From: a virus
Lineage: Duplodnaviria > Heunggongvirae > Uroviricota > Caudoviricetes
Reading direction: 5' to 3' (one strand)
Length of the DNA: 14,631 nucleotides
IMG/VR virus record: IMGVR_UViG_2671180727_000007
Span: 1-14,631 of that record
The notes under the pieces were generated by a model. It was not told the DNA's origin and ran no database searches. It worked only from the letters and a program-made list of their open reading frames with translations. Below are positions 12,990 to 14,610 of the stretch, piece by piece; the first letter of the stretch is position 1, and every line of letters starts with the position of its first letter. The translations under genes and the position numbers were made by a program.

Positions 12990-13222
12990 AGCAAAGTCGT
13001 TATGGGAGCTTTCGAGACTTTGCCATCACGATGAAAAGACTTGAACGAGGCCAGACGGTGATGTTTCACAAGCCCTACCCGCCACAAGGAAATCCCGTAG
13101 CGTTTTATCTTGGAAGGTTAACAAGAAAAGGCGTATTGAGGCGCAGATCCTTCCCGGCGCATACGGAGTTCAGATTGAAAGAAGGCCAAAAGCTAACACG
13201 CGGTATCAGAGGTGTTATATGA
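12986..13222 (+). CDS. Small, highly basic hypothetical protein (78 aa) coupled between the sbcD-like and sbcC-like genes
   Basis: GTG at 12986 overlaps the sbcD stop (GTGA) with GGAGG 5 nt upstream; its stop overlaps the sbcC ATG (ATGA). About 18 Lys/Arg against 4 Asp/Glu. The track's 92-aa form starts inside sbcD. Confidence 0.5.
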   Translation: MKQSRYGSFRDFAITMKRLERGQTVMFHKPYPPQGNPVAFYLGRLTRKGVLRRRSFPAHTEFRLKEGQKLTRGIRGVI

Positions 13223-14610
13223 AGTTTTTAAAGCTCCAGGTTGAGAATTTTATGGCTATCGCCAGCGCGGAGGTCGAGTTAGATCAGCGTGGTTTAGTGC
13301 TTATTCAGGGTGTTAATAGTGATGATAGTTCCGCATCAAGTAATGGCTCTGGAAAGTCAACTCTAATGAATAGCCTGATGTGGTGTCTTTATGGCGAAAC
13401 AGCTCATGGTGTGAAGGGTGACGATGTGTTGTCTACCGACCATGAAAAGAACTGTCGTGTTGCAGTAACCATCGAGGATGAAGGCAAGAGATACGCAATC
13501 ATTCGTCACCGTAAACACAAAGAGTTCAAAAATCGTCTTATCGTTCGTGGTGAAGATGGCGATATGACGAAAGGCAAAGATGCGCTGACGCAGGAGTTCG
13601 TCGAGCGTCTGATCGGTGCATCTAAAGAGGTTTTCATGGCTTCCATCTATGCGAGCCAAGAAGCTATGCCAGATTTACCTGGAATGTCCGACAAAAACCT
13701 CAAAACCATCGTAGAAGAAGCCGCTGGCGTTGACAGACTGACACGCGCCTACGCTATTGCTCGTGAGCGAGCTAATGCAGCTGCCGCACGTATGGATGTG
13801 GTTAAAACCAAATTGGAGTCGACAATCTCGACCATTGAGGCAACACAGTCAGAAATTGAGTCAGCGAAAGCCTCCTCTGAATCATGGGAGCAAGAGCGTT
13901 CTAAACGTTATGACGATGCCCTGGCTGGGCTGGCCAGTGCCGAAGTTGAGTTAACGGAAGTTGAACTTGAGATCCGCACTCTTCCCGAACAGATACGTGA
14001 TACCGAGAAGGCAATCGAAAGTGAGCGCAAAAAGTTAGCCTCAAAAGAAGAACATGACGCCAAGTTGCTCAAAGTTCGTGGTGCGATAACTGATATTCGG
14101 GCAAGCATCAAAGCTACAGAAAATAGTCAGGCTGATGCAATGAACCGCGCGCGTAATTTTAAGACCAAAGCAGAAGAGGTTGGTACTAAAGTGGGATCAC
14201 CATGCCCTACTTGTGGCAAAGCCTACTGCGAAGAAGATCTATCAACGGTGAAGGAGAGTTTCATTGAACAAGCACGTCAGGAAATTGGTCAGGCGAAGAC
14301 ACTTGCAGAGGCAATGGCTAAACACAAAACGAATCTTGAGAAAGCGTTAAGCATTGAGTCTGCCCTTGTTAAAACGACACCTGATGTAACGGCTATCATT
14401 GCCCGGATTGAAGAGCTTACGAAACAACTCTCATCTTTGCGTCATCGTGAGAAGGAGGTTGTTGCTATTGAGTCTCTTGTGACTCGTGCTCGTACTGAGG
14501 TCGATCGTATATCAAAAGAGATTAATCCGTTTATTGCTGTCACGAACGGTGCAATAGTGATCCACACCCAACGCCTGAAATCAGATCCAGGGGGTAATCT
14601 GCTCTCCTGA
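13219..14610 (+). CDS. sbcC: Rad50/SbcC-like ATPase (T4 gp46-like), N-terminal ATPase lobe + coiled coil + CxxC zinc hook; C-terminal ATPase lobe absent (truncated or interrupted)
   Basis: N-terminus MKFLKLQVENFMAI...NGSGKSTLMNSL (Walker A), long heptad-rich region, hook CPTCG about two-thirds in; no signature or Walker B motif before the stop. The last 24 codons and stop lie in the right terminal inverted repeat. Confidence 0.75.
   Translation: MKFLKLQVENFMAIASAEVELDQRGLVLIQGVNSDDSSASSNGSGKSTLMNSLMWCLYGETAHGVKGDDVLSTDHEKNCRVAVTIEDEGKRYAIIRHRKHKEFKNRLIVRGEDGDMTKGKDALTQEFVERLIGASKEVFMASIYASQEAMPDLPGMSDKNLKTIVEEAAGVDRLTRAYAIARERANAAAARMDVVKTKLESTISTIEATQSEIESAKASSESWEQERSKRYDDALAGLASAEVELTEVELEIRTLPEQIRDTEKAIESERKKLASKEEHDAKLLKVRGAITDIRASIKATENSQADAMNRARNFKTKAEEVGTKVGSPCPTCGKAYCEEDLSTVKESFIEQARQEIGQAKTLAEAMAKHKTNLEKALSIESALVKTTPDVTAIIARIEELTKQLSSLRHREKEVVAIESLVTRARTEVDRISKEINPFIAVTNGAIVIHTQRLKSDPGGNLLS

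What the first reader, a model, noticed from the sequence alone, without database searches (positions are those of the whole stretch)
13219..14610. SbcC/Rad50-like ORF lacks its C-terminal ATPase lobe and is terminated by the right terminal repeat
The ORF has Walker A, coiled coil and a CxxC hook at roughly residue 325, but stops at 463 aa without the signature/Walker B/H-loop half that Rad50/SbcC/gp46 proteins need. Codons 440..463 (AVTNGAIVIHTQRLKSDPGGNLLS) and the stop are encoded by the inverted repeat and do not look coiled-coil-like, so the repeat appears to have interrupted the gene. The adjacent sbcD-like gene is intact.
Basis: partly seen in the sequence, partly recalled or inferred. 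Interest (0 to 1): 0.55.

Follow-up and report, generated by a model that had tools for sequence, protein, structure and literature searches.

The report
IS100 insertion truncating a phage-plasmid sbcC
The short SbcC/Rad50-like gene is an ordinary pseudogene: a copy of the mobile element IS100 landed in codon 440 of a 638-codon gene on an SSU5-like phage-plasmid, and the "terminal inverted repeat" is the ends of two IS100 copies at which a draft assembly contig broke.

Summary
The repeat, however, is not a terminus of the element. The window is a complete draft contig (CYAB01000045.1, assembly GCA_001283145.1). Both of its ends are the istA-proximal end (IRL) of IS100, an IS21-family insertion sequence, in inverted orientation.

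Between them, window 98-14537 is collinear at 99.8% with intact 107-113 kb IncFIB plasmids. It is 98.8% identical to Escherichia phage Cyrano, an SSU5-like phage-plasmid.

Residues 1-440 of the ORF are identical to the intact 638-aa SbcC-like protein of those plasmids. Residues 441-463 and the stop codon are read from IS100. The missing 198 residues of the intact protein carry the LSGGEKRK signature, the DLFIGDE Walker B, the D-loop and the H-loop, so the truncated product cannot form an ABC ATPase head.

The 3' half is not in the window and I could not locate it in the same assembly.

Relatives carry independent insertions in the same gene: IS100, IS903B and two elements with IS3-family-like ends. 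About 8% of close relatives in PLSDB lack the 3' end. This is a routine IS-made pseudogene of low interest.

The parts
1..97 (-). Left IS100 copy (partial). These are the first 97 nt from the IRL end, reading leftward out of the contig. The istA start codon is at 11..9 on the minus strand.
   Evidence: 100% identical to the IRL end of annotated IS100 in L002/L004/L011. Identity to intact plasmids starts at 97/98.
98..14537 (+). Native replication/recombination module of an SSU5-like phage-plasmid. It runs from the last base of the last sense codon of dnaE plus its stop codon, through HicBA-like genes, UvsY-like, gp32-like SSB, 5'-3' exonuclease, RecA, an SPFH protein, RepA with iterons and SbcD, to the truncated SbcC gene.
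   Evidence: One collinear match at 99.8% to NZ_CP099899.1 and others. 98.8% over 100% of the query to phage Cyrano OV696614. Gene calls and Pfam hits.
99..128 (+). dnaE stop codon (TAA, 99-101) and the G+C-rich hairpin plus T-run that follows it (108-128). The left IS100 sits inside the last sense codon of dnaE (AA|G).
   Evidence: dnaE CDS ends at L003 4505, which corresponds to window 101. The hairpin is read directly from the sequence.
11904..12989 (+). Intact sbcD/Mre11-like metallophosphoesterase, 361 aa.
   Evidence: Pfam Metallophos E=8.4e-10. phrog_100 SbcD-like E=3.2e-93. 0 differences from the protein of L001.
12944..13222 (+). Conserved 92-aa ORF that overlaps the end of sbcD and abuts the sbcC start (ATGA overlap).
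   Evidence: phrog_37951 E=9.9e-39. Annotated as WP_032140380.1 in relatives. Identical in L001.
13219..14538 (+). 5' 1320 nt (codons 1-440) of the sbcC/rad50-like gene: N-terminal ATPase lobe, outgoing coiled coil, zinc hook and about 110 residues of the returning coiled coil.
   Evidence: 440/440 identical to WP_021520140.1. AAA_23 E=6.6e-17. The intact protein hits phrog_77 SbcC-like at E=4.5e-165 and T. maritima Rad50 in the PDB.
13342..13362 (+). Walker A / P-loop, NGSGKST (residues 42-48).
   Evidence: Aligned to the Rad50 P-loop.
14203..14214 (+). CPTC zinc-hook motif (residues 329-332).
   Evidence: Codons read.
14538..14631 (+). Right IS100 copy (partial). These are the first 94 nt from the IRL end, reading rightward out of the contig. 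The istA ATG is at 14624.
   Evidence: 100% identical to L002 4791-4884, where istA is annotated from 4877. IS100 is 1954 bp in L004.
14539..14610 (+). IS100-encoded tail of the ORF (residues 441-463) and its TGA stop codon (14608-14610).
   Evidence: Residue-by-residue comparison with the intact protein.
14601..14621 (+). IS100-internal palindrome GCTCTCCTGATTCAGGAGAGC. It holds the stop codon of the truncated ORF and the purine-rich stretch (AGGAGAG) just upstream of the istA ATG. The same element lies at 14-34 in the left copy.
   Evidence: Family D7. 9-bp stem, MFE -16.7 kcal/mol, z=-1.8.

Best explanation
An IS100 element (IS21 family; istA transposase and istB helper ATPase; 1954 bp) transposed into codon 440 of the 638-codon sbcC/rad50-like gene of an SSU5-like phage-plasmid of Escherichia. 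Translation now runs 23 codons into the IRL end of IS100 and stops at a TGA just upstream of istA. The product keeps the N-terminal ATPase lobe, the outgoing coiled coil, the CPTC zinc hook and part of the returning coiled coil. It lacks the C-terminal lobe with the signature motif, Walker B, D-loop and H-loop. Without that lobe it cannot assemble the bipartite ABC head, so the SbcCD-like nuclease is inferred to be inactive. A second IS100 copy, in inverted orientation, sits in the last sense codon of the plasmid's dnaE, 14.4 kb to the left. Because IS100 is multi-copy, the short-read assembler ended the contig a little under 100 nt into each copy, which created the apparent terminal inverted repeat. 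Shown: the junctions, the identity to the intact gene, the identity of the IS, and the missing motifs. Inferred: loss of function, a 5-bp target duplication (ATTGC), and that the contig ends are assembly breaks.
For: The window equals the whole contig CYAB01000045.1, and this exact 463-aa protein is on record on that one contig only. Window 97-14538 matches intact plasmids in a single piece at 99.8% and phage Cyrano at 98.8%. Residues 1-440 are identical to the intact 638-aa protein, and every residue from 441 on differs. Both window ends are 100% identical to the IRL end of annotated IS100, with istA starting where expected. IS100 is 1954 bp with TG...CA ends and imperfect terminal repeats in L004, and it has a 5-bp target duplication in NZ_CP070074.1. 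The intact C-terminus carries LSGGEKRK 548-555, DLFIGDE 577-583, DDALD 585-589 and IISHK 612-616. It aligns to the C-lobe of T. maritima Rad50. T-even gene 46 proteins align across residues 1-617. PGAP labels the equivalent IS100-cut gene in p503829_100 as 'incomplete; missing C-terminus'.
Against: Nothing in the data contradicts it. Four things are not shown. The other side of either IS100 copy is outside the contig, so I cannot tell a simple insertion from an IS-mediated deletion or inversion. No reads are available to confirm the junction, although the look-up reports the contig in 2 samples. Loss of function rests on established Rad50/SbcC architecture and was not tested. The tools did not name the organism of the assembly.
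Confidence: 0.95

Rival explanations
1. The inverted repeats are the true ends of a discrete 14.6-kb element: a composite transposon bounded by two inverted IS100 copies, or a linear element with terminal inverted repeats. The gene truncation would then be part of how that element was built.
For: Two inverted IS100 copies do bracket a module that carries repA and its iterons. Other plasmids of the family show IS-mediated reshuffling at this gene.
Against: The window holds only 94-97 nt of each IS, because it is a draft contig cut inside a repeat. The 14.4-kb interior is in its native order and position relative to dnaE and sbcC, as in 100+ intact plasmids, which is what two insertions in situ would give. 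No second location of the module was found. The 8 extra repeat bases are native sequence, not part of an element end.
Confidence: 0.04
2. The junction is an assembly artefact: a chimeric path through an IS100 k-mer. The gene would be intact in the real genome.
For: The junction lies within 94 nt of a contig end, and both ends fall in a multi-copy repeat. The same junction is absent from all complete plasmids and genomes searched.
Against: The join is base-precise at the canonical TG terminus of IS100, which is the signature of transposition and not of a random misjoin. If the gene were intact the assembler would have had a unique path through it. The contig is reported in 2 samples. IS insertions in this gene are common in closed plasmids.
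Confidence: 0.03
3. The truncated ORF is a functional short protein, or one half of a split SbcC whose C-terminal half is expressed separately from beyond the IS. The two halves would then reassemble into a working head, as separately expressed Rad50 N and C fragments do in vitro.
For: The PDB matches include Rad50 constructs deposited as separate N- and C-terminal chains (3qkr_A/3qkr_B, 1ii8_B, 1f2t_B). With a 5-bp target duplication the 3' half would stay in an open frame entering from IS100.
Against: That frame opens directly after the istB stop codon and has only two TTG candidate starts, with no ATG or GTG. In the two related plasmids with nearby IS insertions the 3' half is deleted altogether. 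The cut lies inside the returning coiled coil, so the two arms could not pair along their length. The 23-residue tail is IS sequence.
Confidence: 0.02

Closest known systems
SbcC-like endonuclease subunit of SSU5-like phage-plasmids (WP_021520140.1; CYRAN_66 of Escherichia phage Cyrano / pLF82-type plasmids)
   Same: Residues 1-440 are identical to WP_021520140.1. The neighbours are the same (SbcD-like gene, 92-aa ORF), and so is the plasmid backbone.
   Different: The window copy lacks residues 441-638 (C-terminal ATPase lobe) and has 23 IS100-encoded residues instead.
IS100 (IS21 family), as annotated in E. coli plasmids p503829_100 and NZ_CP070074.1
   Same: The 94 and 97 nt at the window ends are 100% identical to the IRL end, including the TG terminus, the internal palindrome and the istA start.
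   Different: Only the first 5% of each copy lies in the window. The insertion sites (sbcC nt 1320; last sense codon of dnaE) are not seen in any complete record searched.
The IS100-truncated sbcC pseudogene of p503829_100 and three sister plasmids (India)
   Same: Same gene, same IS, same orientation, and PGAP annotation 'missing C-terminus'.
   Different: That is an independent event: the insertion lies 97 nt further downstream, after gene nt 1417. It is followed by a truncated methylase gene and not by the rest of sbcC.
Rad50 / E. coli SbcC / T4 gp46 (SMC-like ABC ATPases with a zinc hook)
   Same: The intact orthologue has Walker A, a Q-loop region, a coiled coil with a CxxC hook, the signature motif, Walker B, D-loop and H-loop, plus a partner Mre11/SbcD nuclease gene.
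   Different: It is short (638 aa, against about 1050 aa for E. coli SbcC as I recall it) and only about 20% identical to T-even gp46. The window copy fails the C-terminal features.

Membership tests
SbcC/Rad50 family ATPase | N-terminal Walker A (P-loop) in an SMC-type N-lobe | tested here: met
   NGSGKST at residues 42-48. AAA_23 E=6.6e-17. Aligned to the Rad50 N-lobe of 3qf7.
SbcC/Rad50 family ATPase | Long coiled coil with a central CxxC zinc hook | tested here: met
   CPTC at 329-332, between the N-lobe and C-lobe matches of the intact protein. The coiled coil itself was not computed; it is inferred from composition and family architecture.
SbcC/Rad50 family ATPase | C-terminal lobe with ABC signature motif, Walker B, D-loop and H-loop | tested here: not met
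   Absent from the 463-aa window ORF. Present in the intact orthologue at 548-555, 577-583, 585-589 and 612-616. The window gene is therefore a pseudogene of a family member and not a functional member.
SbcC/Rad50 family ATPase | Adjacent SbcD/Mre11 metallophosphoesterase gene | tested here: met
   11904-12989. Metallophos E=8.4e-10; phrog_100 E=3.2e-93.
IS100 (IS21 family insertion sequence) | Terminal sequence identical to the IS100 IRL, with a 5'-TG terminus | tested here: met
   94/94 and 97/97 nt identical to annotated IS100 copies. The terminus reads TGTCACGAACGG.
IS100 (IS21 family insertion sequence) | istA followed by istB within a 1954-bp element | not testable with these tools
   Only the istA start codon (14624; 11..9 on the minus strand) lies in the window, because the contig ends there. 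Full copies in L004 and L011 have istA and istB, and the L004 copy measures 1954 bp.
IS100 (IS21 family insertion sequence) | Short direct target-site duplication flanking the element | not testable with these tools
   The far side of both copies is outside the contig. A 5-bp duplication (CCTGG) flanks IS100 in NZ_CP070074.1.
SSU5-like phage-plasmid | Collinear nucleotide identity with a sequenced phage of the group and with its plasmid forms | tested here: met
   98.8% over 100% of the query to phage Cyrano. 79.4% over 81% to Salmonella phage SSU5. 99.8% to IncFIB plasmids of 107-113 kb. SSU5 is named as a phage-plasmid type in PMC7969092.

The most novel reading that the evidence does not exclude
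The sbcC gene of SSU5-like phage-plasmids may be more than a passive IS victim. Two possibilities remain open. A short stretch around nt 1315-1320 could be a structural hot spot, since IS100 and the unrelated IS903B landed 4 nt apart in different plasmids and the second IS100 site of this contig carries nearly the same 8-mer. Alternatively, loss of SbcCD could be selected in the plasmid state, since there are at least six independent IS events and about 8% of close relatives lack the 3' end.
Probability: 0.1. Interest if true: 0.3.

Novelty: already known. Interest (0 to 1): 0.08.

Why it matters
It matters little biologically. Gene disruption by insertion sequences is routine, and annotation pipelines already flag the same kind of event in sister plasmids. 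The practical value is as a caution. A contig-terminal inverted repeat in a draft assembly is most simply two copies of a multi-copy IS. An ORF that 'ends in the repeat' is then an IS-truncated pseudogene and not a new short protein form. The result also shows that SbcC is dispensable for maintaining these phage-plasmids as plasmids, because closed circular relatives lack its 3' end.

Tried and rejected
**Search for the 3' half**
- It is not in the window: no BLAST match to L001 beyond position 4277.
- The exact gene/IS100 junction was not found in IMG/VR, PLSDB or complete E. coli genomes.
- A protein search with the missing 198 residues found a cluster of 125 C-terminal fragments, P0001. The representative is simply cut by a contig start in another assembly.
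The location of the 3' half in GCA_001283145.1 therefore stays unknown.

**IS100 target-site preference**
- The aim was to explain the similar flanks. A scan of the species-representative genomes for the IRL 32-mer gave only 3 contigs, all MAGs.
- Those junctions, together with L004 and L011, do not share the TTTATT motif.
- Hu et al. 1998 (PMC107557), which I recalled as possibly discussing IS100 targets, is not held. The other papers found only cite IS100.

**Insertion hot spot in sbcC**
- Insertions after nt 514 and an interruption near nt 122 also exist, so the clustering at 1315-1512 is weak.

**Naming the organism of the assembly**
- A literature search for the accession prefix returned only irrelevant hits.

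**Natural short variant**
- Rejected. Only one contig carries this protein, and its tail is IS sequence.

Full report
**What is in the sequence**

The ORF at 13219-14610 (+) encodes 463 residues. It has a P-loop (NGSGKST, residues 42-48) and a CPTC motif at 329-332. Pfam finds only the N-terminal AAA_23 domain (E=6.6e-17) and a fragment of SMC_N covering residues 41-116. No signature or Walker B region is detected.

A 102-nt inverted repeat, 99% complementary, pairs 4-105 with 14530-14631. The adjacent gene at 11904-12989 is a 361-aa metallophosphoesterase. It matches phrog_100 (SbcD-like) at E=3.2e-93 and Pfam Metallophos at E=8.4e-10.

**Where the window comes from**

A look-up of the exact 463-aa protein returned one contig: CYAB01000045.1 of NCBI assembly GCA_001283145.1. 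Its length is 14,631 bp, the same as the window. The window is thus a whole contig of a draft assembly, and its ends are contig ends.

**What the interior is**

- Window 97-14538 matches, in one collinear piece at 99.8%, a set of 107-113 kb IncFIB plasmids of E. coli and E. albertii.
- It matches Escherichia phage Cyrano (OV696614, 108,379 bp) at 98.8% over the full length, and Salmonella phage SSU5 at 79% over 81%.
- SSU5 is one of the named phage-plasmid types (PMC7969092, seen).
- The Cyrano annotation reads, in order: DNA polymerase III alpha, HicB/HicA, UvsY, gp32-like SSB, exonuclease, RecA, a stomatin-like protein, a Cra-like protein, RepA, an ASCH protein, SbcD-like subunit, SbcC-like subunit, a hypothetical protein, RuvC and NrdA.

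**What the repeat is**

Both ends of the window are 100% identical to the istA-proximal (IRL) end of IS100 as annotated in E. coli plasmids.

- The right copy starts at 14538 with TGTCACGAACGG, and the istA ATG is at 14624.
- The left copy occupies 1-97 in the opposite orientation.
- In p503829_100 the full element is 1954 bp, with imperfect terminal inverted repeats, and it carries istA and istB.
- In NZ_CP070074.1 the element is flanked by a 5-bp duplication, CCTGG.

Because both window ends are the same IS end, two IS100 copies in inverted orientation must flank the segment. A single copy on a circle would show IRL at one end and IRR at the other.

The repeat measures 102 nt and not 94 because the native sequences next to the two IRL ends happen to be nearly the same: TTTATTGC on the right and TTTATTAC on the left, read as reverse complement.

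**What happened to the gene**

The intact gene in pAVS0223-B (L001 2958-4874) encodes 638 residues. The window protein is identical to it at all of positions 1-440 and differs at every position from 441 on. The break is at the first IS100 base, which is the third base of codon 440 and leaves that codon synonymous.

The 198 missing residues contain:
- LSGGEKRK at 548-555 (signature motif),
- DLFIGDE at 577-583 (Walker B),
- DDALD at 585-589 (D-loop),
- IISHK at 612-616 (H-loop).

In the PDB search this part aligns with the C-terminal lobe of Thermotoga maritima Rad50, and residues 5-150 align with the N-lobe. The intact protein matches phrog_77, 'SbcC-like subunit of palindrome specific endonuclease', at E=4.5e-165. 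T-even phage gene 46 proteins align across residues 1-617 at about 20% identity.

From the established architecture of Rad50/SbcC, the ATPase head is formed from both lobes of one polypeptide. The truncated product is therefore inferred to be inactive. This step is inference and was not tested.

**The left insertion**

The left IS100 lies within the last sense codon of the plasmid's dnaE (AA|G TAA), just upstream of the terminator-like hairpin at 108-128. If this copy also made a 5-bp duplication (GTAAT), the dnaE side would retain the last codon and the stop codon, so dnaE is probably unaffected. This too is inference.

**The missing half**

It is not in the window. The same junction is absent from IMG/VR, PLSDB and 5,426 complete E. 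coli genomes. A protein search with the missing 198 residues found many C-terminal fragments from draft genomes.

I therefore cannot say which of three situations holds: the 3' half lies just beyond the IS (simple insertion), it was deleted, or the segment was inverted between the two copies.

With a 5-bp duplication, the 3' half would lie in the istB reading frame directly after the istB stop codon. The only candidate starts there are two TTG codons, with no ATG or GTG, so independent expression is unlikely.

**How ordinary this is**

Closed relatives show independent IS hits in the same gene:

| Event | Position in gene | Record |
|---|---|---|
| IS100, same orientation, followed by a truncated methylase | after nt 1417 | four Indian plasmids (p503829_100 group) |
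| IS903B, followed by a type I restriction-modification system | after about nt 1315 | NZ_CP081792.1; NZ_CP081707.1 matches the window almost identically but its junction was not read |
| Element whose end begins TGAAGTGG and which I recognise from memory as IS3-family (transposase-like ORFs follow; family not tested) | after nt 1512 | E. albertii p2014C-4015-1 |
| Element with a similar end (TGAAGTGGTCAAC...), which I recall as IS911-like (not tested) | after nt 514 | NZ_CP029421.1 |

Among close relatives in PLSDB (at least 95% identity), 189 records keep gene nt 1-1313 but only 173 keep nt 1523-1917. PGAP already annotates the Indian copy as 'incomplete; missing C-terminus'. The finding is one more instance of a common event.

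**Residual oddities**

- Two different ISs landed 4 nt apart at the same spot of sbcC in different plasmids.
- The second IS100 site of this contig shares 7 of 8 flanking bases with the first.
- Four other IS100 IRL junctions do not share that motif, and other insertions in the gene lie elsewhere. I regard a hot spot as possible but unsupported.

**Verdict**

This is a known kind of event and of low interest.

Noticed in passing
window 90-105 and 14530-14545: The two IS100 copies abut almost the same native 8-mer next to their IRL ends (TTTATTGC| on the right, TTTATTAC| on the left as reverse complement). This lengthens the apparent inverted repeat from 94 to 102 nt. Four other IS100 IRL junctions (L004, L008, L009, L011) do not share the motif, so chance and a local target preference both remain open.
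   Followed up: partly
L012 7300-7340 (NZ_CP081792.1); L004 3257; L013 4512; L014 3514: The same sbcC gene is cut independently in relatives. IS903B lies only 4 nt upstream of the window's IS100 site. IS100 lies 97 nt downstream of it. Elements with ends beginning TGAAGTGG, which I recognise from memory as IS3-family, lie after nt 1512 and nt 514. About 16 of 189 close relatives in PLSDB lack the 3' end of the gene.
   Followed up: partly
window 4904-5977 (RecA, 357 aa): The window's RecA gene lacks an insertion of about 1.27 kb. In phage Cyrano and many plasmids that insertion makes the RecA CDS 2340 nt, and it is annotated as a LAGLIDADG homing endonuclease or Hint-domain protein. It is probably an intein that is present or absent within the family.
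   Followed up: no
window 8720-9200 and 10295-10920, flanking repA (9205-10260, minus strand): Dense arrays of about 20-nt iteron-like repeats (core CTATAGTGGAT, partly at 21-nt spacing) lie on both sides of the Rep3-type repA gene, in opposite orientations on the two sides.
   Followed up: no
window 14601-14621 and 14-34: An IS100-internal palindrome (9-bp stem, -16.7 kcal/mol, z=-1.8) covers the purine-rich stretch just upstream of the istA ATG. It could hide the istA ribosome-binding site in transcripts reading in from outside. It also contains the TGA that ends the truncated ORF.
   Followed up: partly
window 12944-13222: A conserved 92-aa ORF (phrog_37951, E=9.9e-39) overlaps the last 46 nt of sbcD in another frame and ends in an ATGA overlap with the sbcC start. 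It is annotated in RefSeq plasmids but not in phage Cyrano. No Pfam domain was found.
   Followed up: partly
L007, L008, L009 (genome-contig scan): The exact IS100 IRL 32-mer occurs in only three GTDB species-representative genomes. All three are gut MAGs of unrelated taxa (Eubacterium saphenum, Rikenellaceae, Sutterella), on short contigs, which suggests mis-binned Enterobacteriaceae DNA. No Yersinia or Escherichia representative matched exactly.
   Followed up: no
beyond the window (modelled from L004 IS100 plus L001 4272-4874): If the sbcC insertion made a 5-bp duplication, the displaced 3' half would be in the istB reading frame and separated from istB only by its stop codon. No ATG or GTG start lies in between.
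   Followed up: partly
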